DNA of 29,099 nucleotides from Flavobacteriales bacterium. Its GTDB lineage: Bacteria > Bacteroidota > Bacteroidia > Palsa-965. The position numbers and the translations under genes were made by a program. How positions within the stretch are numbered: position 1 is the first letter of the stretch; every line of letters begins with the position of its first letter. The stretch lies in the NCBI GenBank assembly GCA_040377305.1, contig JBEIPA010000043.1, positions 1 to 29,099 of the forward strand. Direction: 5' to 3'. The notes beneath the pieces were generated by a model that was not told the origin of the DNA, did no database searches, and saw nothing but the letters and a program-made list of their open reading frames with translations. Shown here in pieces: positions 1 to 28,571 of the stretch.

Positions 1-228
1 TACGCAGAATCCTGTTGTAACGAATCCGAATACACAGAATCCGGAAACACAAAATCCAATTACGCAGAATCCTGTTGTAACGAATCCGAATACACAGAAT
101 CCGGAAACTCAAAATCCAAACACACAAAATCCTGTTGTAACGAATCCGAATACACAGAATCCGGAAACACAAAATCCAAACACACAAAATCCTGTTGTAA
201 CGAATCCGAATACACAGAATCCTGTTGT
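1..228 (+). repeat. Coding tandem repeat, 60-bp period built of 15-bp subunits (TQNPV/VTNPN/TQNPE/TQNPN), truncated by window edge
   Basis: Lines starting at 1, 61, 121 and 181 are near-identical copies; in frame within the SPOR protein. Confidence 0.95.
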
Positions 229-9420: not shown

Positions 9421-11265
9421 GTGAGTTGTAATTTGTTCCGCTGCCTTCTTATTCCGTTGTTGCTGTTATGCGGTACTGTTGCCTCTGCACAAAAACAGGG
9501 ACAAGCGCTGATTGATTCCCTTGAGCAGGCCCTGCCCACTATGCAGGAGGATTCTAACAAAGTGAATGCTTTGAGTACGTTGGCATTTACTTACCGCCTT
9601 ACTAACGATACGCAGGCATTCCATTACGCTAATCAATGTCTGGACCTTGCACTAAAGCTCGGCGAATCTAAGGGGCTGGGCAAAGCTTATAACACGCTCG
9701 GGAATTGTAACAAGGCGATATCAGATTACCCTGAGGCGCTACGGTATTATTTTCTGGCTCTGGCTCAATTCGAAAAAGGCAATCTGCTGCGAGAAACAGC
9801 CATTGTACACATGAACATTGGTACGGTTTACCGACCAATGGGCTATACTGAGAAGGCACTTGCGGAGTACGATTCGGCTCTTGTGATTGCCATTCAACTG
9901 AAAGAAGAAAAGTTGCACGCACAGTTATTGGGCAACAAAGGTGTGATCTATTTTAGTCAGAAAAATTATAAGGAACAGCAGACTGTCAATTTGCAGGCTT
10001 TAGCAATTTTCAGAAAGATAGGAGATCGCAATAATGAAGCCTGGATACTCGACAACCTTGGTGATAGCTATGCAATTGATGATCCGGAAAAAGGGATAGC
10101 CTATCACAAAGAAGCTATTGCCATATATGATGAACTGAATAATCCGGCATACAAAGCCACCAGCCTGATGAATATTGGTGCGATTTATTTTGACATGGCG
10201 GAGCGAGACAGTTCGGCAAACCGTACTAAACTGTTGAACGAATCTATTTTAGTCCTGAAAGAAGCTGCATCCATTCTCGAGGAAATGGGCGATCTTGAAT
10301 ATCTTAAAGACGTATACCTGAGTTTATCAAATTCGCAGTCGCTTCTTGGAGAGCACGCTGAGGCGTTGCAGAGTTACCAGACTTACTCTCAGCTCAAAGA
10401 CAGTATTATTTCGGTTGAAGTGGAGGAAAGTATTGCAGAACTCGAAACGCAACGTGTAATCGAAGTGCAGGAACGCGAAATAGAAATTGAGCGTCTGAAG
10501 AAGAGAACAGAATATATCTACATATTTGGAGGGGTTGTAATCTTATTGATCATTATTGTTCTGGTAATCATCAGTAACAGGAAACAGCGGAGTCTGAATA
10601 AGATTATCAGTCTGGAGAAGGACAAATCTGAAAAGCTGTTGCACAATATTCTACCGGAAGCTGTTGCAGATGAGTTGAAGGCCAAAGGTCAGGCAGATGC
10701 AAAGCAGTTTGACCATGTGACCGTTATGTTTACTGATTTTAAAGGTTTCACTGCGATAGCGGAAAAACTTTCTCCGAAGGAACTTGTCAGTGAAATTGAT
10801 TTTTGTTTCCGGGAATTCGATCGCATCGTAGAAAAGTATGGGATCGAGAAGATCAAAACAATTGGTGATGCGTATATGGCTGTTGGTGGACTTCCTGTTG
10901 CAAATACAACCAATGCACATGATGTAGTGAACGCTGCATTGGAAATTCAGGAGTTCATGCGCAAGCTTTCAGAAGAGTGTGAACAAAAAGGGCAAACGGC
11001 TTTTCAGATACGAATCGGTATACATTCGGGACCTGTTGTTGCCGGAATTGTGGGGGTGAAGAAATTCGCCTATGATATTTGGGGTGATACCGTAAACACA
11101 GCTTCGCGGATGGAAAGCAGCGGTGAGGCAGGGCAAGTCAATATATCTGACTCTACATATACATTGGTGAAGGATCAATTCACATGTATTCATCGCGGTA
11201 AAATTCCGGCGAAGAATAAAGGAGAAATCGACATGTACTTTGTTCAGTCCAAAGTGAATTCATGA
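9421..11265 (+). CDS. Membrane-anchored class III adenylate cyclase with extracytoplasmic TPR sensor
   Basis: Signal peptide ASA|Q, TPRs (AYNTLGN, HMNIGTVY, LGNKGVIY, LMNIGAIY), one TM, SEKLLHNILP, VMFTDFKGFT, KIKTIGDAYM, YDIWGDTVNTASRMES. The K and D at the specificity positions indicate ATP. Start uncertain (9394/9421/9433). Confidence 0.92.
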   Translation: MSCNLFRCLLIPLLLLCGTVASAQKQGQALIDSLEQALPTMQEDSNKVNALSTLAFTYRLTNDTQAFHYANQCLDLALKLGESKGLGKAYNTLGNCNKAISDYPEALRYYFLALAQFEKGNLLRETAIVHMNIGTVYRPMGYTEKALAEYDSALVIAIQLKEEKLHAQLLGNKGVIYFSQKNYKEQQTVNLQALAIFRKIGDRNNEAWILDNLGDSYAIDDPEKGIAYHKEAIAIYDELNNPAYKATSLMNIGAIYFDMAERDSSANRTKLLNESILVLKEAASILEEMGDLEYLKDVYLSLSNSQSLLGEHAEALQSYQTYSQLKDSIISVEVEESIAELETQRVIEVQEREIEIERLKKRTEYIYIFGGVVILLIIIVLVIISNRKQRSLNKIISLEKDKSEKLLHNILPEAVADELKAKGQADAKQFDHVTVMFTDFKGFTAIAEKLSPKELVSEIDFCFREFDRIVEKYGIEKIKTIGDAYMAVGGLPVANTTNAHDVVNAALEIQEFMRKLSEECEQKGQTAFQIRIGIHSGPVVAGIVGVKKFAYDIWGDTVNTASRMESSGEAGQVNISDSTYTLVKDQFTCIHRGKIPAKNKGEIDMYFVQSKVNS

Positions 11266-12353
11266 AAAAACTTTTGACCTTTCTTGCCTTATGGCCGGCG
11301 CTTCTTTACGCTCAACTCGATCGTGTCCGAATGGATATGTCTGAGCTGGATTTTGTTAAAGCATTTCCTGAAGCCAGCCGCGAATACGAAGCAGAATCAT
11401 TCTGGTTAAATGCATGGGACACCATTGAAGGCACCGCCGGAAATTCAATGTGGAGAATTCTGGCGGATACCGTTACACAATACAATTTTCGCTCACCGAA
11501 AGTAAATGGACCTTCTTACCGTTTTCCTGATGTTGATTCGGTAAAAGTTCACAACATGCGGGTTAGCGCGAGACAACTTACACTGAAACTGAAAAAGTAT
11601 TATGGAGAACCTTCCGTTGTTCAGGAAAAGAAAATTGTAGTTGCCGCGTCCGAACCGGGGACAAATGATGGCGTAGTAACGTCGTTGGTGAGTACACATG
11701 ATGTTTACTTCGCGCAATGGAATTTTAGCGATGGAAGAATCATTTCCGTGATTGTCTCTGCTCAGGTTCCGTTGATTAAGTCCATAACACCGGCTCACGG
11801 AATTACAGCGGGAACTGAGACTTCTGAACAGTATGAATTTACCGTTACTGTTACCCGCAGTTCAACGGACTTACCCTGGAAATTTCAGGTAGGACGTGGT
11901 GTAACGGAAATGTCGCAGCGTAATCCACGCTTACAGGCTGTTGTTTCAAAATCGTTAGTGCACATCTATACGTTTCCGGATAAGGAATTGTCCGGCACTG
12001 CAGGGTGGAAGTTCGTGTTTCAGAAAAACACAATTATCAACATGCAGTATTACACGGCAAACGGTTTGTATTACGGCGACCAATCGACCGAAGGTTCATA
12101 CAGTCAGTGTAAGTATCGCGCTGAAAAATTAATAGCAGAAGGACAGAAATCATTGGGTAAACCAGACTCCATGTACAATGTAATGACGCCGGAGTACAAT
12201 CCATTCAACATGGAAACGAAGTACCAATATCCTTATCTCTATGCTGAATGGCGCCAAGCGGGCGGAACGATCTATCTGATTTTCGACGAGCTCGGAGGCG
12301 GTAAAGAAGGTGTGCGTTTTTCTGTACGCATCAACTATCCGGTTTTGAATTAG
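11262..12353 (+). CDS. Exported hypothetical protein, paralog 1, internally duplicated
   Basis: Signal peptide LYA|Q; ATGA overlap with the cyclase stop; alignable along its length with the next gene. Confidence 0.85.
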   Translation: MKKLLTFLALWPALLYAQLDRVRMDMSELDFVKAFPEASREYEAESFWLNAWDTIEGTAGNSMWRILADTVTQYNFRSPKVNGPSYRFPDVDSVKVHNMRVSARQLTLKLKKYYGEPSVVQEKKIVVAASEPGTNDGVVTSLVSTHDVYFAQWNFSDGRIISVIVSAQVPLIKSITPAHGITAGTETSEQYEFTVTVTRSSTDLPWKFQVGRGVTEMSQRNPRLQAVVSKSLVHIYTFPDKELSGTAGWKFVFQKNTIINMQYYTANGLYYGDQSTEGSYSQCKYRAEKLIAEGQKSLGKPDSMYNVMTPEYNPFNMETKYQYPYLYAEWRQAGGTIYLIFDELGGGKEGVRFSVRINYPVLN

Positions 12354-12382
12354 GCATGAAGGTTGATTTTACAAATCTATAC

Positions 12383-13429
12383 ATGCGAAAGTTCACCTTT
12401 CTATTTCTTCTGATTCCATTTGTGATGAGCGCGCAGCTTGATCGTATCAAAGTTGATATGGTCGAGAGTGAATTTGTGAAAGCTGTTCCAGAAGCGAAAC
12501 GTGACTATGATGCAGAATCGGGTTGGGTGAATAACACAGACTCTGTGGGCGGATTGAATGGAGAGAAACGATGGAAAATTTACAACGATACTGTTGTCGA
12601 ATACAACTTCCATACACAATACATTCAAGGCCCGTCAGAAGATTTTCCGAAAGTAGATTCAACTGATGTACATAAAATGCGAACGAGTGCGGAAAAAGTT
12701 TGCCGCAGTATGGAATTGGTACACGGCAAACCCAGTTTGTCCAGAAGCGTTTCGTTTACCGGGAGCAATCCGATGAACAATCCCATAATTTACATAGCTG
12801 AATGGAACACAGGACAGGGAATGCTGCGAGTTACAATTTCATCTTCGGTCAAACCCGTAAATAACATCAATGCTCCCCGGATCGTTTCGCCCCAAACCAC
12901 GAAGTACCAGTTGACTATTGTTGTAACGGATAGATCACTTCACAGCATGTTGAATTATTCGATCGGGCAACCTGCAACGGTCTTCTTTCTCAATAAAGAG
13001 TACCTGAGAGAAGAAGCCCTGTTCATGAACTATCATTATTATACAATTACCGATTCGTTAACCGCGCCGAATGCACGATGGAAGTTCACCTTTGCCAGTG
13101 ATAGTTTGATCGAGTTTAATTATCAAGCCTATTTCGGCATGAGTTACGGTTCCCGGAATGATTCAATTGCCCGTGCTGATGCGGAAGCGAAGACATTAGC
13201 CCTTATTTCTCAGGGACAAAAATCGTTTGGACTTCCAGACTCGTCGTTCAATAAAATCAAGGGTCCTTATCAGGCTCTTCCAAGAGTGAATAGTTATGAC
13301 AGGGGCTGGATCTACGCGCTGTGGCTGGAAGAAAGTGCATTTGCATTCTGTAGTTTAACTGAAACCGGTGGAGGGAAACACCCGGCTGCTACTTTTTTTG
13401 TCGGTGTAACTTACCTGAGCAAAAGATAA
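12383..13429 (+). CDS. Exported hypothetical protein, paralog 2, internally duplicated
   Basis: MRKFTFLFLLIPFVMSA|QLDRIKVDM; ATG 12383 gives the best signal peptide (the ORF opens at 12356). Confidence 0.85.
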   Translation: MRKFTFLFLLIPFVMSAQLDRIKVDMVESEFVKAVPEAKRDYDAESGWVNNTDSVGGLNGEKRWKIYNDTVVEYNFHTQYIQGPSEDFPKVDSTDVHKMRTSAEKVCRSMELVHGKPSLSRSVSFTGSNPMNNPIIYIAEWNTGQGMLRVTISSSVKPVNNINAPRIVSPQTTKYQLTIVVTDRSLHSMLNYSIGQPATVFFLNKEYLREEALFMNYHYYTITDSLTAPNARWKFTFASDSLIEFNYQAYFGMSYGSRNDSIARADAEAKTLALISQGQKSFGLPDSSFNKIKGPYQALPRVNSYDRGWIYALWLEESAFAFCSLTETGGGKHPAATFFVGVTYLSKR

Positions 13430-13483: not shown

Positions 13484-14626
13484 CTAAAATTCCTTCGCTA
13501 CCATTTCCGCCACTTCTTCACCAGTCAGACTTCCCAGCGCAACGCCCATGCCACCCATCCGTACAGCGCAATGAACGCGATTCTGAATTTTCCGGACAAT
13601 TGGAGATTTGGTTTTTCCAACACCCATAGTTCCCGCCCAGCGCATATCCACCGTGTAATTTACTCCGGGTAGAATCATCGTTCGCAGTAATTCATCCAGA
13701 CGATCCTGCACAAGATTTGTCAACGCATGCTCAGTCGTCCTCTCCGCATTAAAGTCAAGATTTCGCCCACCTCCAAACAATACGCGGTTACCGATGTTTC
13801 GGAAGTAGAAATAACCTTTCTCGTAATGAAATGTGCCACGCAATTTCAAACCCGGAATTTCATGGGTCACCAACACCTGTGCTCTTGCTGGTTCCACATC
13901 TTCTAGCGGAAGCAATTGTTTCGCGAATCCATTGGTGCAGATGATGAGTTGCCTGCATTGAATGGTCATTCCGTTGCGCGTGTGAATTGATAACCCATTC
14001 TCTTCCTCTTCGAAACGAAGAATCTCCAGTCCATTCAGAATATTGATCCCAGCCGATTTCGCTTTATCAATTAAAGCACTCATCATTCTCCCGGTATCAA
14101 TCTGTCCTTCTCCGCAATTGTGAATCATGTGTTTTACCTGACCAAGACCGAATGAAGAAATCTTCCCGCTCGCATCTGCATACACGTCGTTCAGTCCGGT
14201 GATTGGTTTCAACTTCGCATTGAACCACGAAATTTTTTCAGCGCATTTCTCAAATTCTTCCGGGGAATCGAACACTTCGTAACCACCCAGCATTTCGAGT
14301 TTCATATTGGCATCGCCCACATTCTCCCGCAAACGCTTCAATCCTAAATACCGGTTCTCGACCAGCTTAAACACATCGTTTTCATTGATGTGAGTAAGAT
14401 CGTCCATCAGTTCAGTAAGACTTCCGAAACACGCAAATCCCGCATTTTTTGTACTTGCGCCCGATGGCAATGCACCTCTTTCAACCACTAGAATCTTAAG
14501 AGAAGGATTTTTGCTTTTCAGTGAAAGCGCAGCGTTGATCCCAACAATTCCGCTACCGGCAATTACCACATCAATCCCGTTCAGGTATTGATCACGTTCC
14601 CAAAAACTCAACAGAGAAACTGCCAT
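13484..14626 (-). CDS. FAD-dependent oxidoreductase, DAO/glycine oxidase/PuuB-like family
   Basis: DVVIAGSGIVG, VVERG..PSGASTKNAGF, IICTNG, YFYFR..GNRVLFGGGR, WAGTMG, MGGMGVALG. Confidence 0.88.
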   Translation of the reverse strand: MAVSLLSFWERDQYLNGIDVVIAGSGIVGINAALSLKSKNPSLKILVVERGALPSGASTKNAGFACFGSLTELMDDLTHINENDVFKLVENRYLGLKRLRENVGDANMKLEMLGGYEVFDSPEEFEKCAEKISWFNAKLKPITGLNDVYADASGKISSFGLGQVKHMIHNCGEGQIDTGRMMSALIDKAKSAGINILNGLEILRFEEEENGLSIHTRNGMTIQCRQLIICTNGFAKQLLPLEDVEPARAQVLVTHEIPGLKLRGTFHYEKGYFYFRNIGNRVLFGGGRNLDFNAERTTEHALTNLVQDRLDELLRTMILPGVNYTVDMRWAGTMGVGKTKSPIVRKIQNRVHCAVRMGGMGVALGSLTGEEVAEMVAKEF

Positions 14627-14633
14627 TGCGGAC

Positions 14634-14641
14634 CGAAAGTA
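14634..14641 (-). promoter_or_regulatory. -7 box variant TACTTTCG
   Basis: One mismatch to TAnnTTTG, 7 nt before ATG 14626. Confidence 0.5.
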
Positions 14642-14886
14642 CGGAATGGATTTGCCGGCTGGTAACTTGTTAATAATAGCGGGCTAAAAAACGGGTTACG
14701 GAAAAACCTCAAACTGCATTTTATCGTAAGAATTAGACGGGATTTTGTTCAACGCAACTGTGGCATGGAAAGTGCCTGATTGTCAAGGTCTCAAACCGTT
14801 GAGTTTTTATGTTTTTCGGGATTTTTGAGCGATATTTGCACTCCTGTTTCATGGAAAAAAGAGGAGCCGAAACCACCACCGTACGT

Positions 14887-17800
14887 ATGCCAACACTTTT
14901 TACATCCTTTTCGCGGATAGCAGCAGTATTTTGTCTGTTGCTAACAGTAGCGTTGCCGGTGAAACTATCTGCGCAAATTGCGGAACCAGTTGATTGGCGA
15001 TTCGAGTTTGGTGGTAAAGTCACCGAGTTCAATGAGAAGAAACAGAAGGACGTAGCGCTGGAAGGTGCAGTAATCACCCTGCTTAAAGGCGGCGTACAGG
15101 AACAGCAGGTTACAACGAACAGTAGCGGACGATTCAAGTTTTTGCTTGCACCGAACTTTGAATATACCGTAAACGTTACCAAGAACGGTTACATCACCAA
15201 GCGATTTGCAATTTCTACACACAACGTTCCAGTAGAACGAGGTGAAGGTCCGTTTTCACCCTATGATATTGAAGTTGGTTTGTTCAAGTTATTTCCTGGA
15301 CTGGATTACTCCTGCCTTGACAAACCGATTGCGAAAATCCTGTACACGCCGGTTGTTGAAGACTTTGATTACGACAAAGTATACACGGCTTCGATTCAAA
15401 AATGTGTTGATGATCTGAAACGTCTCGAAGCCGAAGCGCGCGCGAAGCAGAAATTGTATGATGCAGCCATTGAAGCAGCAGACAAACTTTTTGGTCAGTC
15501 GAACTGGCAAGGTGCAAAAGACAAGTACAATGAAGCACTCGTTTACCTTCCGAATGAGCAGTATCCCAAAGATCAAATCATCAAATGCGATGAGAAGATG
15601 GGCGCTTCTGCAAAGACGGAAGCAGATTACAAAGCAGCAATTGCAGAAGGAGACCGACTTTTTGCTGCTTCTGATTGGACAGGCGCAAAGGCGCAGTATC
15701 AGAAGGCGTCCGGTATAAAAGCCGGTGAGCAGTATCCCAAAGATCAGATTGTTAAATGCGATAACAACGCTGCTGCCGGTGCAAAGCGTGCTCAGTACGA
15801 TGCTGCTATCAAGGATGCGGACGCAAAATTTGCAGCGAAAGATTGGGCTGGAGCAAAAACGAAATACACCGAAGCTTCCGGATTGTTTCCAACTGAAGTA
15901 TATCCGAAGGATCAGATCAAAAAGTGCGATGACGAAATAGCGAAAGCAGGAAACAAGGCAAAGTACGATGCTGCAATTGCTGATGCAGATGCAAAATTCA
16001 AAGCGGCTGATTTCGCAAACGCAAAGACAAAATATCAGGAAGCTTCTGCGATCATTACTACTGAACAGTATCCGAAGGATCAAATTGTAAAGTGTGACGC
16101 TGAAATTGCAAAGCAAGGTCTGGACAAACAGTACAACGATGCTATTGCCGCTGCAGACGCGAAATTTAAGTCAGCTGATTTTGCAGGTGCGAAAGTGGAC
16201 TACCAGAAAGCGTCGGCACTAAAAACTGCTGAGCAATACCCGAAAGATCAGATTGTAAAATGCGACGCCGAGATTGCGAAAGCAGGATTGCAGAAGCAGT
16301 ATGATGCGGCCATTGCTGATGCAGATGCGAAGTTCAAGTCTTCCGATTGGTCTGGTGCGAAAGCGAAATACCAGGAAGCTTCCGCTTTGAAGACAGGCGA
16401 GCAATATCCGAAAGATCAGATCGTGAAGTGCGATGCTGAGATTGCTAAAGCTGGTCTCGACAAGACGTACAACGATGCAATTGCAGCTGCAGATGCGAAG
16501 TTCAAAGCTTCTGATTGGTCTGGTGCAAAAGCTGATTATCAGAAAGCATCTGCACTTAAAACAGCAGAGCAGTATCCGAAAGATCAGATCACGAAATGCG
16601 ACGCGGAGATTGCGAAAGCCGGACTCGATAAATCATACAATGACGCTATTGCGGCTGCTGATGCCAAATTCAAATCATCTGATTGGTCGGGTGCGAAAGC
16701 CGATTACCAGAAAGCTTCTGGTTTGAAAGTTGCGGAACAATATCCGAAAGATCAGATCGTGAAGTGCGATGCCGAGATTGCTAAGCAAGGACTCGACAAA
16801 TCGTACAATGATGCTGTTGCTGCTGCGGATGCTAAATTCAAAGCCAAAGATTACGCAGGTGCGAAGACGAAGTATCAGGAAGCATCTAATCTGAAGTCGG
16901 CAGAACAGTATCCGAAAGATCAGATTGTATTGTGCGATAAAGAACTTGCCGGACTCGATCTGCAGAACAAGTACACTGCAGCGATCAAAGATGCGGATGC
17001 AAAATTCAAGCTCTCCGATTGGACGGGAGCGAAGGCCAAGTACATGGAAGCTTCGGCACTGAAAGGTGAGGAGCAATATCCGAAAGATCAGGTTGTGAAG
17101 TGTGACGCAGAGATTGCGAAGAAGGGTGTACAGGAGCAATATGACGCGTTGATCAGAGACGCTGACACGAAATTCAAAGCAGCCGATTACACGAATGCAA
17201 AAGGTGTTTATCAGCAAGCATTGGATCTGAAATCTGCAGAAGCGTATCCAAAAGCACAGATTGTAAAATGCGATTCGGAAATTGCTAAGTTGGGTGTTCA
17301 GGCGCAATATGATGCGTTGATAAAGGACGCCGATTCCAAATTCGGTACTTCTGATTGGGCAGGTGCAAAAGCAAAATACCAGGAAGCATCTGCGTTGAAA
17401 ACTGCGGAAGCTTATCCGAAAACACAGATTACAAAGTGCGATGCGAATATGGCTTCTGATGCAAAAGCAGCGAAGTACACTAACCTGATTGCGAGTGCCG
17501 ATTCCAGCTTCAAACTGTCTGAATGGTCAAGCGCAAAGTCATTGTACCAGCAAGCATCTGCACTCAAAACTGCGGAACAGTATCCAAAAGATCAGATTGC
17601 GAAGTGTGATGCGGAAATTGCGAAAGTCGGAAAAGACAAACAGTACAATGATCTTATTTCAAAAGCAGATACAAAGTTCAGTGCATCTGATTGGGCAGGA
17701 GCGAAGGCGATTTACCTGCAGGCAACAGCTGTGAAAGCCGACGAACAGTATCCAAAAGATCAGGTTGCTAAATGCGACGCGAATGTCACTGCAGCAAAAG

Positions 17801-20103
17801 ACGCTGCTTACAATAAGATCATCGCATCCGCAGATTCATTGTTTAAACTTCCAGATTACACTGCTGCAAAGACCAAGTATAGGGAAGCGAACACTTCACG
17901 TCCGGGCGAACAGTATCCAAAGGATCAGATGGCGAAGTGCGATGCTGAGATAGCGAAGCTCGGAAAAGACAAACAGTACGCGGATCTGATTTCGAAAGCC
18001 GATGCCAAATTCGGAACTTCAGATTGGGCCGGAGCGAAAACTATTTACCAGCAAGCGTCGGGTGTAAAACCGGATGAAGCGTATCCGAAAGAACAGATTA
18101 CGAAGTGTGATGCAAATATTGCAGGTGCAAAGGATGCTGCTTACAACAAGATCGTAGCAAAGGCTGATTCCTTGTTCAAAGTTCCGGACTATCTGGCTGC
18201 CAAGCTGAAGTATAAGGAGGCAAGTACTGCTCGTCCTGATGATCAATATCCGAAAGATCAGATCGTGAAGTGCGATGCTGAGATTGCAAAACAAGGAAAA
18301 GACAAACAGTACAGTGATCTCATTACAAAAGCGGATGCTAAGTTCAACGCTTCTGATTGGGCTGGTGCAAAACCACTTTACCAGCAGGCTTCGGGTGTTA
18401 AAACAGAAGAACAGTATCCGAAAGATCAGATTGCAAAATGTGATCAGAACATTGCAGGGGCAAAGGATGCTGCATACAACAGAATAATAGCGAAAGCTGA
18501 TTCACTTTTCAAGGTTCCGGATTACTCCGCTGCCAAAGTGAAGTACAAAGAAGCGAGCACGCAACGTCCGGATGATCAATATCCGAAAGATCAGATGGCG
18601 AAGTGTGATGTTGAGATTGCGAAACTAGGCAAAGACAAACAGTACACGGACCTGATCGCCAAAGCAGATGCTAAGTTCAATACTTCATTGTGGACCGAAG
18701 CGAAGGCCCTTTACCAGCAGGCTTCCGGTGTTAAGACCGAAGAGCAGTATCCGAAAGATCAGATTGCAAAGTGTGATGAAAATCTTGCCAACGCAGGAAC
18801 GCAGGCGAAGTATGATGCTGCAATCAAAGCTGCAGATGCAAAATTCAAGCTCAACGACTGGAACGGAGCGAAGGCAAAGTATCAGGAAGCGTTGACGGTT
18901 AAGTCAGGCGAACAATATCCTACGGATCAGATCAGGATTTGTGACGACAACATAGCAAACGCTGCGAACAAGAAATACGCGGATGCGATTGCTGCTGCTG
19001 ATGTGAAATTCGGCGCTGTAGATTACTCCGGCGCAAAAGCAAAATATCAGGAAGCTTCAACCATGCGTCCGAATGAGCAGTACCCGAAAGATCAGATTGC
19101 GAAATGTGATGCGGAGATTGCGAAGCAGGGTCTTGATAAAACATACAACGCTGCAATCGCTGCTGCTGATACGAAGTTTAAAGCATCTGACTGGAACGGT
19201 GCGAAAGCTAAATACGAGGAAGCACTTGGAATCAAAGAAGGTGAGCAGTATCCAACCGATCAGATCAAACTCTGTGAAAAGAATCTTGCAGATGCCATGG
19301 GTCTTGAAGATCGTTACGCACACTTTATTCAACATGCCGATTCTGCATTCAAGGTGGAAGACTACGAATCTGCAAAGTCTGGTTACGAGAGCGCACTGGG
19401 TGTAAAACCTGCGCAGGCTTATCCTACAGCACAGCTTGCCGAAATCAACAAGCGACTTGCAGCAATTGAAGCCGCTCAGGCAAAGGACGCCAAGTATCGC
19501 GCTACGATTGCGAAGGCGGATAGTTTGTTTACTGCAAAAGATTTTAAAGCAGCGAAAATTCAGTATCAGTCTGCGTCAACACAGAAACCTGGAGAGCAAT
19601 ATCCGAAAGACAGATTGGCTATGTGCGATACGGAAGTTGCGAATGCAGCGTTTGAAGCAGCGAAACGGAAAAAGTACGACGATCTGATTAAGAAAGCTGA
19701 CGTGAAGTTTAACGCCGGTGCATTTGCCGATGCGAAGAAGCTCTATCAGGATGCGCTGAAGGAATTGCCTGTGGAATTGTATCCGAAAGAGCAGATTGCG
19801 AAGTGCGATAAGAAATTGAATCCTGTGACCAAGGATACTACGCGTACGGCAGAGCAGATCAAAGAAGATTACCGTAACGAGATTGCGAAAACTTATCCGC
19901 AGGGCTTAACGCAGATTGAGGAGAAGGATGGAGGCACTACAACAGTTAAACGTATTGTTGTAATTGGTGAACACGGATTCATCTACACCAAGAAAGTTTA
20001 CTCTTGGGGAACGTTCTACTTCAAAGATGGTGTACAGATTTCTGAAGGCACCTTCAATTACGAGACATCACCAGGATACATTTCGCAGCAGCAGCAGAAG
20101 TGA
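14887..20103 (+). CDS. Giant exported TPR-like repeat protein: N-terminal carboxypeptidase-regulatory-like domain, 26 helical repeats, small C-terminal beta domain
   Basis: Signal peptide ...LPVKLSA|Q from ATG 14887 (the ORF opens at 14809; 14851 is an alternative). GGKVTE...LEGAVITL...TTNSSGRFKF...YTVNVTKNGY is CarboxypepD_reg-like. 26 E/Q-x-YP motifs counted. Confidence 0.9.
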   Translation: MPTLFTSFSRIAAVFCLLLTVALPVKLSAQIAEPVDWRFEFGGKVTEFNEKKQKDVALEGAVITLLKGGVQEQQVTTNSSGRFKFLLAPNFEYTVNVTKNGYITKRFAISTHNVPVERGEGPFSPYDIEVGLFKLFPGLDYSCLDKPIAKILYTPVVEDFDYDKVYTASIQKCVDDLKRLEAEARAKQKLYDAAIEAADKLFGQSNWQGAKDKYNEALVYLPNEQYPKDQIIKCDEKMGASAKTEADYKAAIAEGDRLFAASDWTGAKAQYQKASGIKAGEQYPKDQIVKCDNNAAAGAKRAQYDAAIKDADAKFAAKDWAGAKTKYTEASGLFPTEVYPKDQIKKCDDEIAKAGNKAKYDAAIADADAKFKAADFANAKTKYQEASAIITTEQYPKDQIVKCDAEIAKQGLDKQYNDAIAAADAKFKSADFAGAKVDYQKASALKTAEQYPKDQIVKCDAEIAKAGLQKQYDAAIADADAKFKSSDWSGAKAKYQEASALKTGEQYPKDQIVKCDAEIAKAGLDKTYNDAIAAADAKFKASDWSGAKADYQKASALKTAEQYPKDQITKCDAEIAKAGLDKSYNDAIAAADAKFKSSDWSGAKADYQKASGLKVAEQYPKDQIVKCDAEIAKQGLDKSYNDAVAAADAKFKAKDYAGAKTKYQEASNLKSAEQYPKDQIVLCDKELAGLDLQNKYTAAIKDADAKFKLSDWTGAKAKYMEASALKGEEQYPKDQVVKCDAEIAKKGVQEQYDALIRDADTKFKAADYTNAKGVYQQALDLKSAEAYPKAQIVKCDSEIAKLGVQAQYDALIKDADSKFGTSDWAGAKAKYQEASALKTAEAYPKTQITKCDANMASDAKAAKYTNLIASADSSFKLSEWSSAKSLYQQASALKTAEQYPKDQIAKCDAEIAKVGKDKQYNDLISKADTKFSASDWAGAKAIYLQATAVKADEQYPKDQVAKCDANVTAAKDAAYNKIIASADSLFKLPDYTAAKTKYREANTSRPGEQYPKDQMAKCDAEIAKLGKDKQYADLISKADAKFGTSDWAGAKTIYQQASGVKPDEAYPKEQITKCDANIAGAKDAAYNKIVAKADSLFKVPDYLAAKLKYKEASTARPDDQYPKDQIVKCDAEIAKQGKDKQYSDLITKADAKFNASDWAGAKPLYQQASGVKTEEQYPKDQIAKCDQNIAGAKDAAYNRIIAKADSLFKVPDYSAAKVKYKEASTQRPDDQYPKDQMAKCDVEIAKLGKDKQYTDLIAKADAKFNTSLWTEAKALYQQASGVKTEEQYPKDQIAKCDENLANAGTQAKYDAAIKAADAKFKLNDWNGAKAKYQEALTVKSGEQYPTDQIRICDDNIANAANKKYADAIAAADVKFGAVDYSGAKAKYQEASTMRPNEQYPKDQIAKCDAEIAKQGLDKTYNAAIAAADTKFKASDWNGAKAKYEEALGIKEGEQYPTDQIKLCEKNLADAMGLEDRYAHFIQHADSAFKVEDYESAKSGYESALGVKPAQAYPTAQLAEINKRLAAIEAAQAKDAKYRATIAKADSLFTAKDFKAAKIQYQSASTQKPGEQYPKDRLAMCDTEVANAAFEAAKRKKYDDLIKKADVKFNAGAFADAKKLYQDALKELPVELYPKEQIAKCDKKLNPVTKDTTRTAEQIKEDYRNEIAKTYPQGLTQIEEKDGGTTTVKRIVVIGEHGFIYTKKVYSWGTFYFKDGVQISEGTFNYETSPGYISQQQQK
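15457..19818 (+). repeat. Coding array of 26 repeats of ~56 aa (168 bp)
   Basis: Consensus YDAAIAAADAKFKASDWAGAKAKYQEASALKTAEQYPKDQIVKCDAEIAKAGLDKQ; Pro codons exactly 168 bp apart from 16072 to 17752, then alternating 165/168. Confidence 0.95.
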
Positions 20104-24959: not shown

Positions 24960-27900
24960 ATGAGTAAAAAACTTGTACTACTCTCAGTTGGTTTGCTTTC
25001 AATCCTGGCATTGCAGGCTCAAAATGGTCGCTCGTTTGCGATTGAATTTTCTTCGGGTTCTCAAATAATTGAAACCCGGATAGAGCCATTGTCTGACGAT
25101 TCGGAATTGATGAACGGTCGCTACTATCGTCATTTGCATTTCAATTCGCTGCCCGATTATGCAACGAGAATGGAAATGGAAAAGAACGGAATCACGCTTC
25201 TCAATTTCATTTCCGGCATGACATACACGGCTTCATTGCGAAGTGACGTGAAGTTCCCATTGAGCGCATCGTACAACGTAAGCGGAATGTCGCTCATCAA
25301 TGCAGATTCTAAAATGCATCGCGAACTATCTACTGCTCTGGCGAATTCCGATTTCCCGTTCTACGCAATGGATGGAGACCGGAATATAGGTATCACTTTT
25401 ACGTACTATGCAGATATTCCGCACCACGTTGTGCTGGATTCTGTTTACGCGTTGCCCTACAAGCTTTCTTATCACAATGGAAACAGTCATCGTATGACGA
25501 TCTGGATTCCAGAGAACGAGGTACGTGCGTTTGTTTCCAAATCATTCGTATGTGCAGCAGAGTTGAAGGATGATGCTCCACAATTGGACAACAACGTAGG
25601 TCGTACAGATCACCGCGATAATTGGCTGGCTCAGGATTTTCCCGGAGGAAGAATGTATAATGGAGCCGGAGTGAACGTGATGTTACAGGATGATGGTATT
25701 ATCGGTCCGCACATTGATTACACAGGGCGCTTGCAGAATCAGTTCATTACGTTTAACGGAGGTGATCACGGTGATCATTGTGCCGGAATCATTATGGGTG
25801 GTGGAAATAAAGATCCGCTGACCAGAGGAATGGGTTGGGGTGCAGATATTCACGTGTATGAAGCCGCTCCATATCAAGGGTACGATAGCATTTACAATCA
25901 CTACTTCACGAATAACATTCTGATTACATCCACCAGTTACTCGGATGGATGCAATGCGGGTTATACAACGCTGGCTCAAACATTAGATCAGCAAATCATT
26001 GATATGCCAAATCTGATTCACGTATTCTCTGCGGGTAACAACGGAGCATCTGATTGCGGATATGGAGCAGGTTCAACATGGGGAAATGTTACAGGCGGTC
26101 ACAAGCATTCTAAAAATTCAATTGCCGTAGGGAATCTTACACATCTGGATGCGCTCGCTGCTTCATCAAGTCGCGGACCTGCACATGACGGACGTATGAA
26201 ACCTGAAGTGTGTGCGGTTGGAACAAACGTGTATTCAACCAGCGACGTGAACGATTACGTTTTCAAAACCGGAACATCGATGTCTTGTCCTGCTGTGTCT
26301 GGCACATTCGCTTGTTTGTACCAGGCTTATCGTGAGATTAACGGAACAACTCCGAAATCGGGATTGATGAAAGCTGTATTGATGAATACGTGCGATGATC
26401 TTGGTAACGCAGGACCCGATTTCAGATTTGGTTACGGTCGTATTAATGGTCGTAAAGCAATTCAGCCGATAGAACAAAACTGGTACATCACAGATTCAGT
26501 AGGCAACACACAAACTGATGTGCATACGATTACTGTTCCTGCTAACACAGGTCAGTTGAAGGTTATGCTTTACTGGCACGATGTTCCTGCTGCGGTGAAT
26601 GCGACTGTGGCGTTGGTAAATAATCTGAATATGCAGGTTACGGATCCATCATCGACTGTATTTAATCCGTGGATTCTGGATTTTACTCCGAACGCTGCCA
26701 ATCTTAATGCTGTTGCAACACGAGGAATTGACGTGCGTAACAACCATGAGCAGGTTACGATCGATAATCCGGCTGCCGGAACTTACACTGTTTCAGTGAA
26801 TGGGGCAGTGGTTCCAATGGGACCACAAGTGTATTATCTGGTTTGGTATTTCGAACCAGCCGATGAACTTGTACTGACGTATCCAAATGGTGCAGAAGGA
26901 TTTGTTCCAGCCGAAACGGAAGTGATTCGTTGGGATGCATGGGGCAATGCAGGAACGTTTACGCTTGAATACACAACAAACGGAACGACATGGAATCCGA
27001 TAGCAAGTGGTATTGCAGCAGCAGATCGTTATTATAACTGGACAGTTCCTGCTGGATTGAGCGGTTTGTGTAAAGTGCGAATCACACGTAATTCAGTGAG
27101 TGATGAAAGCGACGAGAATTTCTCGATAGCAGCTGTGCCAACAGGAATTTATGTTGATTGGTCGTGTCCTGATTCCTTGTGTCTGAAATGGAATTCGGTT
27201 CCGGGCGCAACAGCGTATGACGTGTTCATGCTTGGTTCTGTATACATGGATTCGGTGGGAACTTCACCTGTCGACAGTTTTGTTGTTACAGGTTTGAACA
27301 ATTACACCAACACATACTGGTTCAGTGTTAGAGCGATTGCGCCTAACCAAACTGTAGGTCGTCGTGCGATTGCAATTGAAAAGCTGCCCGGTGTAGTTTG
27401 TGCAGGACCTGACGCTTCTGTTTCAGCCGTATCTGCACCGGAATCTGAATACTACAGTTGCATGAGCCTGAATAACGTTCCGGTTGTTGCGACTATTTCA
27501 AATACAGGGACGTCAACGATTTCCAACTTTCCGGTTTCGTTCTCATACGATAATGGAGCGCCAGTGACTGAAACATATTCGGGCACGATTGCGCCATCAG
27601 GAACTGCAACCTATACGTTCACAGCAACATTGAACATTGGTGCAATTGGACCACATACACTGAAGGTGTGGAGTGATCTGGTGAATGATATCGGAAATCT
27701 CAACGACACAACCACAACACTGATCAATCACAACAACTCTGTGACTGTAACTCCGGCTTGGGTGGAAGATTTTGAGAGTTTCCCACTGTGCGGCACATCT
27801 TCGAATTGCGGAAATACAAATTGTGCCATGATCAACGGCTTGACCAACATCGTGAACGGTTCGGGTGATGATATTGACTGGAGAACTTCACAGGGTGCAA

Positions 27901-28571
27901 CTCCTTCGTCGAACACAGGACCTGGATCAGATTATCTCCCAGGCAGTACCACTGGAAATTATCTGTACCTCGAAGCTTCTGCTTGTTTCGGTCAAACAGC
28001 GACTTTGATGTTGCCGTGCATTGATCTTACCGTGTTTAGCACTCCGACGTTTTCATTTGCATACCACATGAACGGAGTTGACATGGGTGAATTGCATGTT
28101 GATATTTACTCTAACGGAGTTTGGATCAATGATGCATGGGTAGAAACCGGTAATCAAGGAAACACATGGCAACTAGCTACTGTTTCGTTGAACGCTTATG
28201 CGGGACAGGTAATCCTGATTCGCTTCCGCGGAATAACAGGTCCGGATTACACAAGCGACATGGCTATTGACGCTATCCGCCTGGAGGATCCAACATCATT
28301 GCAGGATAATGCATCATTCTCCGGATTAAACATTTTCCCGAATCCGACAGAAGGAATCACAACGGTTAATGTTTCAGGACTCACAGAATCAATCGTCACT
28401 GCAGATGTTTATGACGTTGGTGGCCGATTAGTAAGTTCATCACAACATGCAGCAAGCGGAAGTACGGCACAGTTTCAGGTAGACCTGAATGGTTTGTCTT
28501 CGGGCGTGTATTTCCTGAAAGTGCGTTCCGGCGATCTTGAAGAAACCGTAAGGATCACCAAACTGGACTAA
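24960..28571 (+). CDS. T9SS-secreted S8 (Kp43-like subtilisin) serine peptidase with FN3/CARDB-like and MAM domains
   Basis: Signal LQA|Q; triad LQDDG, HGDHCAG, TGTSMSCP; oxyanion FSAGN; Kp43-like LKVMLYWHD...VNNLNM; MAM EDFE..DIDW..GATPSSNTGP..GNYLYLEAS..FAYHM..GNQGNTW..DMAIDAI; CTD IFPNPT...SGVYFLKV. Confidence 0.94.
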   Translation: MSKKLVLLSVGLLSILALQAQNGRSFAIEFSSGSQIIETRIEPLSDDSELMNGRYYRHLHFNSLPDYATRMEMEKNGITLLNFISGMTYTASLRSDVKFPLSASYNVSGMSLINADSKMHRELSTALANSDFPFYAMDGDRNIGITFTYYADIPHHVVLDSVYALPYKLSYHNGNSHRMTIWIPENEVRAFVSKSFVCAAELKDDAPQLDNNVGRTDHRDNWLAQDFPGGRMYNGAGVNVMLQDDGIIGPHIDYTGRLQNQFITFNGGDHGDHCAGIIMGGGNKDPLTRGMGWGADIHVYEAAPYQGYDSIYNHYFTNNILITSTSYSDGCNAGYTTLAQTLDQQIIDMPNLIHVFSAGNNGASDCGYGAGSTWGNVTGGHKHSKNSIAVGNLTHLDALAASSSRGPAHDGRMKPEVCAVGTNVYSTSDVNDYVFKTGTSMSCPAVSGTFACLYQAYREINGTTPKSGLMKAVLMNTCDDLGNAGPDFRFGYGRINGRKAIQPIEQNWYITDSVGNTQTDVHTITVPANTGQLKVMLYWHDVPAAVNATVALVNNLNMQVTDPSSTVFNPWILDFTPNAANLNAVATRGIDVRNNHEQVTIDNPAAGTYTVSVNGAVVPMGPQVYYLVWYFEPADELVLTYPNGAEGFVPAETEVIRWDAWGNAGTFTLEYTTNGTTWNPIASGIAAADRYYNWTVPAGLSGLCKVRITRNSVSDESDENFSIAAVPTGIYVDWSCPDSLCLKWNSVPGATAYDVFMLGSVYMDSVGTSPVDSFVVTGLNNYTNTYWFSVRAIAPNQTVGRRAIAIEKLPGVVCAGPDASVSAVSAPESEYYSCMSLNNVPVVATISNTGTSTISNFPVSFSYDNGAPVTETYSGTIAPSGTATYTFTATLNIGAIGPHTLKVWSDLVNDIGNLNDTTTTLINHNNSVTVTPAWVEDFESFPLCGTSSNCGNTNCAMINGLTNIVNGSGDDIDWRTSQGATPSSNTGPGSDYLPGSTTGNYLYLEASACFGQTATLMLPCIDLTVFSTPTFSFAYHMNGVDMGELHVDIYSNGVWINDAWVETGNQGNTWQLATVSLNAYAGQVILIRFRGITGPDYTSDMAIDAIRLEDPTSLQDNASFSGLNIFPNPTEGITTVNVSGLTESIVTADVYDVGGRLVSSSQHAASGSTAQFQVDLNGLSSGVYFLKVRSGDLEETVRITKLD

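What the first reader, a model, noticed from the sequence alone, without database searches (positions are those of the whole stretch)
14887..20103. Giant exported rod-like protein of 26 ~56-aa helical repeats joining two small end domains
Seen: Sec signal peptide, a carboxypeptidase-regulatory-like beta domain, 26 tandem repeats and an ~80-aa C-terminal domain (YPQGLT...KRIVV...YTKKVYSWGTFYFKDG). There is no lipobox, TM anchor, catalytic motif or recognisable T9SS type A CTD. Known: canonical TPRs are 34 aa. Inference: each unit is a TPR-like hairpin plus a third helix running into the next unit, giving an extended spectrin-like chain rather than a TPR superhelix. At a rough ~3 nm per unit this would be tens of nm long, more than a normal periplasm width. 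Candidate undescribed envelope scaffold, molecular ruler or filament.
Basis: partly seen in the sequence, partly recalled or inferred. Interest (0 to 1): 0.75.

Follow-up and report, generated by a model that had tools for sequence, protein, structure and literature searches.

The report
Giant helical tether in Bacteroidota envelopes
This gene encodes a 1738-residue protein with an export signal, in which 26 repeated units are predicted to form a rod up to about 75 nm long between two small conserved end domains; it belongs to a large unstudied Bacteroidota family whose middle part varies freely in length and type, so it likely works as a long two-ended tether in the cell envelope.

Summary
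In detail: one ORF (14887-20103, +, 1738 aa) with a signal peptide, a transthyretin-like head, 26 units of 55-60 aa and an ~80-aa tail unknown to Pfam and NCBIfam. Each unit is one TPR plus a third helix that runs into the next unit. The AlphaFold model shows this, multi-unit stretches do not fit TPR solenoids, and unit spacings in 116 homologs step by one helical turn (56/57, 60, 63/64, 67, 71; period 3.6). New here: head and tail define a family found in 110 of 201 sampled Bacteroidia genomes, mostly all-or-none by family, 1-7 copies. It is rare in a phylum-wide sample (5 of 251). The middle is interchangeable: 0-39 units, TolA-like charged helix or proline-rich linker; 279-2469 aa. That points to a stalk joining two binding modules and argues against a fixed ruler. 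The tail is not a type A/B T9SS signal or a TonB C-domain, so the protein is likely periplasmic and, at about three periplasm widths, would lie along the envelope. Partners and location are untested. This scan noted what appears to be the same family before, on other DNA (e1-697645). No paper on it was found.

The parts
14887..14973 (+). Sec-type signal peptide, residues 1-29, likely cleaved before Gln30 (LSA|Q). Possible earlier in-frame start at 14851.
   Evidence: Sequence; only hydrophobic stretch of the protein. A loose [AGS]Q pattern is present in 140 of 158 homologs and a lipobox-like pattern in 1 of 158 (no chance control run).
14974..15435 (+). Head domain, residues 30-183: transthyretin/prealbumin-like (carboxypeptidase-regulatory-like) beta sandwich with a family-specific extension (extra hairpin, FDYDxxYT) that ends in a long helix. 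Likely disulfide C143-C173.
   Evidence: Pfam PF13620 E 2.8e-7, below cut-off. Model of homolog P0171 at pLDDT mostly above 90. Fold matches: carboxypeptidase D TTR-like domain Z 8.7, 2.1 A, 79 aa; SusC N-terminal extension 9hfj Z 8.3, 2.5 A, 79 aa. Cys pair: 21 proteins have both, 20 neither, 0 only one (redundant relatives).
15457..19818 (+). Stalk, residues 191-1644: 26 units, each one TPR motif plus a third helix predicted to continue into the first helix of the next unit. Units 14/16/18/20 and 15/17/19 alternate, marking a duplicated ~111-aa double unit.
19849..20103 (+). Tail domain, residues 1655-1738 plus stop: predicted helix, five-strand beta meander, helix, with a conserved Trp-Gly-Gly at a hairpin tip. 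In no Pfam or NCBIfam family.
   Evidence: Alignment A1; model of homolog P0171; conservation W 80%, aromatic 97% of 202 rows; 1648 clusters at 50% identity.
13484..14626 (-). Divergent FAD-dependent oxidoreductase gene (Pfam DAO), an old head-to-head neighbour; functional link unknown.
   Evidence: Pfam PF01266 E 1e-37. A homolog lies upstream and divergent in 16 of 40 fetched loci (in two of them one gene lies between) and, by eye, in 5 of 10 further loci.
14627..14886 (.). Intergenic region, likely holding divergent promoters; GATATTTG at 14831-14838 resembles the Bacteroidota -7 box.
   Evidence: Sequence; the consensus TAnnTTTG is recalled, not tested. The sigma-70 scan found nothing, as expected for this phylum.

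Best explanation
The protein has an export signal, no membrane anchor and 26 repeats between two conserved end domains, and it likely works as a long, semi-flexible two-ended tether in the periplasm, holding one binding partner at its head and another at its tail. Steps: (1) Sec export and signal cleavage release it as a soluble chain (inferred from sequence). (2) With no recognisable T9SS signal it would stay in the periplasm (inferred; tested only against type A and B signals). (3) The repeats form a chain of three-helix knots strung on one running helix, up to ~3 nm per unit and ~75 nm in all, with glycine hinges in 20 of 25 linkers (predicted; supported by spacing statistics). (4) The stalk's job is reach, not chemistry, since homologs replace it with a charged single helix or a proline-rich linker (the replacement is shown; the reading is inferred). 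(5) The head would dock on an envelope protein and the tail, through its conserved aromatic hairpin, on a second protein or a glycan such as the cell wall (inferred; partners unknown). (6) At about three periplasm widths it would lie along the envelope or loop, not stand across it (inferred).
For: Head and tail are conserved together while the middle is not: 158 non-redundant proteins with both ends are 279-2469 aa long with 0-39 units, 25 of them with none. Examples of TolA-like and Pro-rich middles: L043, L047, L055, L057, L060. The middle type needs 24 changes on a 95-row quick tree; starred branches force at least 4-7 per type. 109 of the 110 genomes with the tail also have the head at E<=1e-12. 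9 of the 10 head-only genomes carry a second type of small tail; in the three genes read in full it follows a similar stalk. Continuous helix: model and spacing period 3.6, permutation p 0.004. Not a solenoid: single units fit TPR/MIT bundles at 1.1-1.8 A, multi-unit fits to TPR arrays 10-29 A. No T9SS A/B signal although the genome has at least 150 type A and 54 type B matches. The co-occurring Cys pair suggests an oxidising compartment. Presence is mostly all-or-none by family, as for a housekeeping envelope part.
Against: No partner, location or phenotype is known, and no RNA or protein data were seen. Neighbouring genes give no shared envelope machine: PorE-like TPR/PD40/OmpA genes lie near only 4 of 40 loci, and the commonest neighbour is a probably cytoplasmic oxidoreductase. 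The tail sits within 25 residues of the C-terminus in 317 of 317 proteins (redundant, and partly set by the search), as a secretion signal would. It is also fused behind unrelated bodies such as MORN repeats. A soluble 75-nm rod in a ~25-nm periplasm is unusual. Among the 15 closest full-length proteins 14 keep 21-26 units, so length is not free within a lineage. The repeat model covers only four units, was folded without an alignment, and breaks the helix at one of three junctions.
Confidence: 0.5

Rival explanations
1. Surface stalk: the tail is an unrecognised secretion or anchoring signal (a new T9SS C-terminal domain type), and the rod projects the head outward like an adhesin on a periscope.
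For: Signal peptide plus a conserved ~75-aa domain always at the far C-terminus, the general layout of T9SS cargo (PMC12618676, passages). It is found behind different bodies. 109 of 110 carriers have SprA. The head fold also occurs in pilins and adhesin stalks. A 75-nm rod fits outside more easily.
Against: No likeness to type A or B signals (hhalign 1.5% and 1.3%; control A vs B 69%), and a different predicted topology. Only 1-7 copies per genome, and no enzyme domain among the 29 family members scanned against Pfam, unlike a general signal. One protein has two tails in tandem and little else (P0027). SprA is in 197 of 201 genomes, so the co-occurrence says little. Repeat DNA identity is at most 81%, below the highly identical repeats of Periscope proteins.
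Confidence: 0.2
2. Periskeletal filament: head binds tail of the next molecule, so the rods polymerise end to end along the periplasm to brace or shape the cell, as CrvAB does in Vibrio.
For: Two conserved ends that travel together. Head-only and tail-only proteins exist in the same lineages and could cap chains. Periplasmic filaments are known in Vibrio (bioRxiv 2020.02.20.954503, passages) and in gliding Bacteroidota (PMC9870892, passages).
Against: Head-tail covariation was at noise level: the top pair is an almost invariant Asp correlated in one clade (Neff about 126, weak power). The head is paired with an apparently unrelated second tail in three families.
Confidence: 0.13
3. Force-relay arm: the head is gripped by a TonB/TolA-type motor protein and the stalk passes pull to a distant target at the tail, standing in for the TolA that Bacteroidota seem to lack.
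For: Many middles look like TolA or TonB domain II. The head has the fold of the SusC N-terminal extension, which PMC12204202 (section 10) says is implicated in TonB contact; the same section reports no identifiable tol-pal loci in Bacteroidetes. No TIGR02794 TolA match in this genome.
Against: No N-terminal membrane anchor; the tail is unlike TonB_C (hhalign 0.25%). ExbB/ExbD-like genes were seen near one locus only (L079, by eye). The fold of the head is very common. Glycine hinges and a fourfold length spread suit force transmission poorly.
Confidence: 0.1
4. Molecular ruler: the number of units sets a distance or chain length in the envelope.
For: A discrete, rod-like repeat; 14 of the 15 closest full-length proteins have 21-26 units.
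Against: 15-39 units within one family, 279-2469 aa overall, several lengths per genome, and unstructured Pro-rich middles.
Confidence: 0.07

Closest known systems
TPR proteins (Pfam TPR clan; consensus CTPR arrays, PP5, Sti1, OGT) and MIT three-helix domains
   Same: Each unit carries TPR signature residues (small residue at 8, aromatic at 17, A20, Y24, A27) and one unit superposes on PP5 TPR (Z 9.7, 1.4 A, 57 aa) and on MIT domains (Z 8.5, 1.1 A, 57 aa).
   Different: Period 55-60, not 34. The TPRs are isolated, not stacked; multi-unit fits to TPR solenoids are 10-29 A, TM-score at most 0.21, so no superhelical groove is predicted.
TolA / TonB periplasmic force transducers
   Same: Three-part plan with a helical or proline-rich middle of low conservation and a small C-terminal domain (PMC12204202, passages).
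   Different: Cleavable signal and a beta-sandwich head in place of the membrane anchor; tail unrelated to TonB_C by profile; no tol-pal or exb operon; far longer.
Periscope proteins (SasG, Rib, SHIRT, CdrA stalks)
   Same: Rod of tandem small domains whose number varies, separating two ends (PMC8201768, passages).
   Different: Repeat DNA is only 60% identical on average (max 81%), so the expansion is old, not rapidly switching. No surface anchor. The stalk can be swapped for a single helix.
Spectrin repeats (recalled, not from a call)
   Same: Chain of three-helix bundles in which the last helix of one unit continues into the first of the next.
   Different: Units about half the size (56 vs ~106 aa) and TPR-derived; spectrin was not among the listed fold matches. 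An analogy only.
PorE, and the SusC N-terminal extension
   Same: TPR plus carboxypeptidase-regulatory-like domains in Bacteroidota envelope proteins; PorE is proposed as an outer membrane-wall tether (PMC12204202, section 10).
   Different: No lipid anchor, beta-propeller or OmpA wall-binding domain; a long stalk and a new tail instead.
CrvAB periplasmic filament of Vibrio
   Same: Soluble periplasmic structural proteins without membrane anchors (bioRxiv 2020.02.20.954503, passages).
   Different: No sequence link was found or tested; polymerisation is not shown here.

Membership tests
Canonical TPR solenoid proteins | TPR helix-turn-helix motif with signature residues | tested here: met
   Signature positions 8, 17, 20, 24, 27 kept in the 26 units; several homologs pass Pfam TPR_2 cut-offs, though P0001 itself has no Pfam TPR hit.
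Canonical TPR solenoid proteins | Tandem 34-residue period | tested here: not met
   Spacings 55-60 in P0001; 52-99, peaks at 56/57, 60, 63/64, 67, 71 in 116 homologs.
Canonical TPR solenoid proteins | Stacked superhelix | tested here: not met
   Predicted model only: multi-unit rmsd 10-29 A to solved TPR arrays.
T9SS cargo (type A or B C-terminal domain) | Sec signal peptide | tested here: met
   By sequence and hydropathy; no SignalP available.
T9SS cargo (type A or B C-terminal domain) | TIGR04183 or TIGR04131 C-terminal domain | tested here: not met
   No hit for P0001 or 40 tails; hhalign 1.5% and 1.3% with a positive control of 69%; the same models ring widely in this genome.
T9SS cargo (type A or B C-terminal domain) | Secretion across the outer membrane | not testable with these tools
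   Needs a reporter fusion or fractionation.
TolA / TonB | Uncleaved N-terminal membrane helix that binds the motor | tested here: not met
   Single N-terminal hydrophobic stretch ending LSA|Q, the same pattern across homologs; cleavage itself is inferred.
TolA / TonB | TonB_C / TolA III C-terminal fold | tested here: not met
   No Pfam or NCBIfam hit; hhalign 0.25% against 15 of this genome's TonB_C domains; predicted helix-five strands-helix order. The tail was not fold-searched alone.
TolA / TonB | Helical or proline-rich periplasmic middle | tested here: met
   In homologs; in this protein the middle is the repeat chain.
TolA / TonB | Gene beside tolQR/tolB/pal or exbBD | tested here: not met
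   Not among recurring neighbours in 40 loci plus the window; one nearby exb-like cluster by eye (L079).
Periscope proteins | Long, highly identical DNA repeats | tested here: not met
   Mean 60%, max 81% DNA identity; same codon for same residue in only 52%.
Periscope proteins | Variable repeat number | tested here: met
   15-26 among the closest proteins, 0-39 in the family: between species. Variation within a species was not shown.
Periscope proteins | Surface display | not testable with these tools
   No anchor recognised.
CarboxypepD_reg / transthyretin-like domain | Prealbumin-like beta sandwich | tested here: met
   Fold matches Z 8-9.6, profile hits to NOMO2, SdrD and SusC NTE; Pfam score just under cut-off.
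BamP | Sequence relation to the BAM subunit with two domains joined by a loop | tested here: inconclusive
   No chain named BamP among PDB sequence hits of head or tail profiles; no direct comparison was run. Paper passages seen (PMC12611786).

The most novel reading that the evidence does not exclude
About half of Bacteroidia families share an undescribed, ancestral periplasmic skeleton or force-relay system built from soluble two-headed rods, 5 to over 100 nm long, that link head to tail or link a motor to distant envelope sites. It would have been lost in the model Bacteroidota and would use a new kind of bacterial spectrin-like chain made from single TPRs.
Probability: 0.2. Interest if true: 0.8.

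Novelty: new variant of a known kind. Interest (0 to 1): 0.52.

Why it matters
It defines a widespread, apparently housekeeping envelope protein family of Bacteroidia with a tail domain that the Pfam and NCBIfam libraries do not hold. It seems missing from the large, well-sampled families, which may be why it has been overlooked. It shows TPR motifs used as knots on a running helix to build a rod, with a clean evolutionary signature (spacing changes by whole helical turns), and shows three different stalk types doing one job. How Bacteroidota organise their periplasm without a clear Tol-Pal system is an open question, and this family is a concrete candidate to test. The repeat is also a natural length-tunable protein rod.

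Tried and rejected
PDB sequence search with the whole protein gave one weak TPR hit; with the tail profile nothing. ESM Atlas: no usable hit for the tail, only 'hypothetical protein' Bacteroidota clusters for a short homolog. Fold searches with the two-domain model were filled by the head, so the tail's fold has no tested match and is not claimed to be new. One Pfam LCI-fold hit at E 0.057 in 1 of 40 tails is not evidence. Head-tail covariation: noise. Head and tail are not homologous to each other. O-glycosylation motif D-(S/T)-(A/L/V/I/M/T): 6 sites against 5.4 expected, and not enriched in the family; rejected as evidence. My recollection that the Cys-rich leader of P0027 marks TonB-like proteins was not borne out: its relatives in this genome are assorted small exported proteins. 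Co-occurrence with SprA is uninformative (197 of 201). In 7 genomes lacking the family the oxidoreductase gene sits in unrelated contexts, so no replacement gene was revealed. The second tail type shows no profile likeness to the first (0.5%, three sequences only) and a database search with it found nothing. No RNA holder listed. Paper searches found no description of this family; the library lacks most subscription papers and no supplements were read. PMC12419801 (passages) was irrelevant.

Full report
Observation. The window is one whole contig of a 5.2-Mb genome; a genome of the same genus is titled 'Bacteroidia bacterium'. The frame at 14887-20103 (+) encodes 1738 residues. It holds 26 units at spacings of 55-60 residues, with 9 of 48 core columns identical in all units, mean protein identity 56% and mean DNA identity 60%, maximum 81%. 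Units 14, 16, 18, 20 and 15, 17, 19 are each other's closest matches, which marks duplication of a double unit; units 5-8 form another recent block. The only hydrophobic stretch is the N-terminal signal, ending LSA|Q. The head scores just under the Pfam cut-off for CarboxypepD_reg. The tail has no consistent Pfam or NCBIfam match in 40 homologs.

Shape of the repeats. An AlphaFold model of the head plus four units, made without an alignment, left the head unfolded but gave the units block pLDDT of 73-95. It shows a 14-residue helix alternating with a 34-35-residue helix that joins the end of one unit to the start of the next at two of three junctions; the first junction is broken. Single units superpose on TPR and MIT three-helix bundles at 1.1-1.8 A over 50-60 residues; longer alignments to TPR arrays have rmsd of 10-29 A. 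Z values near 10 for helical bundles are not discriminating, so this says 'locally TPR-like, globally not a solenoid', no more. Each unit keeps TPR signature positions. Independent support comes from evolution: in 116 homologs, non-redundant at 75% in the tail, unit spacings peak at 53, 56/57, 60, 63/64, 67 and 71; the best period is 3.6 residues, with permutation p 0.004 (relatives are not independent). Insertions of whole helical turns are what a continuous helix between bundles would tolerate. From helix lengths the advance is at most about 3 nm per unit, 78 nm for 26; this is arithmetic, not a measurement. Glycine occurs in 20 of 25 linkers and proline in none, suggesting hinges.

The family. 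The tail profile finds 1648 clusters at 50% identity, fragments included. It is present in 110 of 201 genomes of at least 90% completeness drawn from the genus, the family and many other families of the class, at 1-7 copies. Among the 30 families tallied by name all but one are all-or-none (own family 22 of 22; eight families 5 of 5; others 0 of 4 or 0 of 5). In a phylum-wide sample, where large families weigh most, only 5 of 251 genomes have it. These tallies include three unpublished genomes (G012, G361, G424). Named records are metagenome bins called Bacteroidia, Flavobacteriales or Bacteroidetes, all 'hypothetical' or named from the repeats. The head profile is found in 119 of the same 201 genomes and in 109 of the 110 tail carriers. 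Nine of the ten head-only genomes carry a different small tail. Among 158 non-redundant proteins with both ends, length is 279-2469 residues and unit number 0-39. The middle may be units, a Lys/Ala/Glu-rich helix like TolA domain II, a proline-rich linker like TonB, or mixtures. On a quick tree of head plus tail (95 rows; the careful search did not finish) the middle type changes 24 times, and sister rows can be 503 and 2282 residues. This genome also has a divergent paralog with a helical middle and degenerate tail, two head-only proteins and one four-unit protein.

The ends. A short natural homolog (P0171, 318 aa) folded with a 106-row alignment at mean pLDDT 86. The head is a transthyretin-like sandwich with an extra hairpin leading into a 50-residue helix; best matches include the carboxypeptidase D domain and the SusC N-terminal extension. 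A Cys pair in the head is present together or absent together in 41 proteins. The tail is helix, five-strand meander, helix, with a conserved Trp-Gly-Gly in the loop between strands three and four. The fold searches were filled by the head, so the tail's fold is unassigned. By profile it is unlike type A, type B and TonB C-terminal domains of this genome (1.5%, 1.3%, 0.25%; control 69%). The genome has T9SS and gliding motor genes and many canonical cargo proteins. The tail also occurs behind MORN repeats, behind a single unit, and twice in one small exported protein, so it behaves as a portable module.

Neighbourhood. A divergent FAD oxidoreductase gene lies upstream in 16 of 40 loci and by eye in 5 of 10 more, across at least seven families. 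A DUF4846 gene lies near 8 of 40 loci and PorE-like genes near 4 of 40. No operon points to a machine.

Mechanism. Shown: export-type signal, no anchor, conserved ends, interchangeable middle. Predicted: rod of three-helix knots on a running helix. Inferred: periplasmic location and a tether role. In Porphyromonas the PorM arches span about 17 nm and the PorKN ring is about 8 nm thick (PMC9170169, passages), so a periplasm of roughly 25 nm; a 75-nm rod would have to lie along the envelope or loop. I put the two-ended periplasmic tether at 0.5, a surface stalk with a new secretion signal at 0.2, a head-to-tail filament at 0.13, a motor-linked arm at 0.1 and a ruler at 0.07. Against the favoured reading: the tail is terminal in 317 of 317 proteins, close relatives keep 21-26 units, and no partner is known.

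Comparison and novelty. It works like TolA/TonB middles, Periscope stalks or spectrin in giving reach, but fails the defining tests of TPR solenoids, T9SS type A/B cargo, TolA/TonB and Periscope proteins. Papers seen: PMC12204202 (passages and section 10), PMC12611786, PMC8201768, PMC12618676, PMC9870892, PMC9170169, PMC12871550, PMC12419801 and bioRxiv 2020.02.20.954503 (passages only). Nine searches found no description of this family; that is not proof of absence. The spectrin comparison and the Bacteroidota promoter consensus are recalled. Verdict: a real, undescribed and widespread envelope family with an unusual repeat architecture; function inferred, not shown.

Noticed in passing
window 1-2485 (+): Protein cut by the contig start, with long Asn-Pro-Asn-Thr-Gln-type repeats and a Pfam SPOR hit; three similar SPOR-like segments by eye. 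Probably a large septal cell-wall-binding protein.
   Followed up: no
window 13484-14626 (-) and many loci: FAD oxidoreductase gene kept head-to-head with the stalk gene across at least seven families, but in unrelated contexts where the stalk gene is missing; reason unexplained.
   Followed up: partly
L089:7287-7481, L091:5433-5627, L093:5347-5541: A second, different small C-terminal domain (YYGYxNFGDGxG...TxEEF) follows the same head and stalk in three families and coexists with the first type in a fourth (16 of 201 genomes).
   Followed up: partly
L080:2024-11395 (-): 3124-aa member in which about 2200 residues, charged and helix-like in the stretches printed, come before the head domain, then more such sequence and the tail.
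   Followed up: no
G000 C7:1392-2672, C47:45793-46362, C11:137756-138310, C43:35621-36370: A divergent paralog, two stand-alone head proteins and one protein of four units only in the same genome; clusters of stand-alone heads also in L072 and L094.
   Followed up: partly
P0027; G000 C31:15221-15745 and nine more: A Cys-rich leader (CxxxW...CxxCxxxVxDF) in front of a hydrophobic signal-like stretch in assorted small proteins; P0027 joins it to two tail domains.
   Followed up: partly
window 11262-13429 (+): Two tandem paralogous exported proteins of about 360 aa with no clear Pfam family; homologs beside the same locus in two close relatives.
   Followed up: no
window 24960-28571 (+): Subtilisin-like (S8) protease by eye, with a T9SS type A C-terminal domain.
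   Followed up: no
G000 whole genome: Very large T9SS cargo set (at least 150 type A and 54 type B matches) and two full-length gldM genes.
   Followed up: no
L043, L056, L057: A recurring three-gene cluster (TPR protein and two small exported proteins) divergent from the helix-type members.
   Followed up: no
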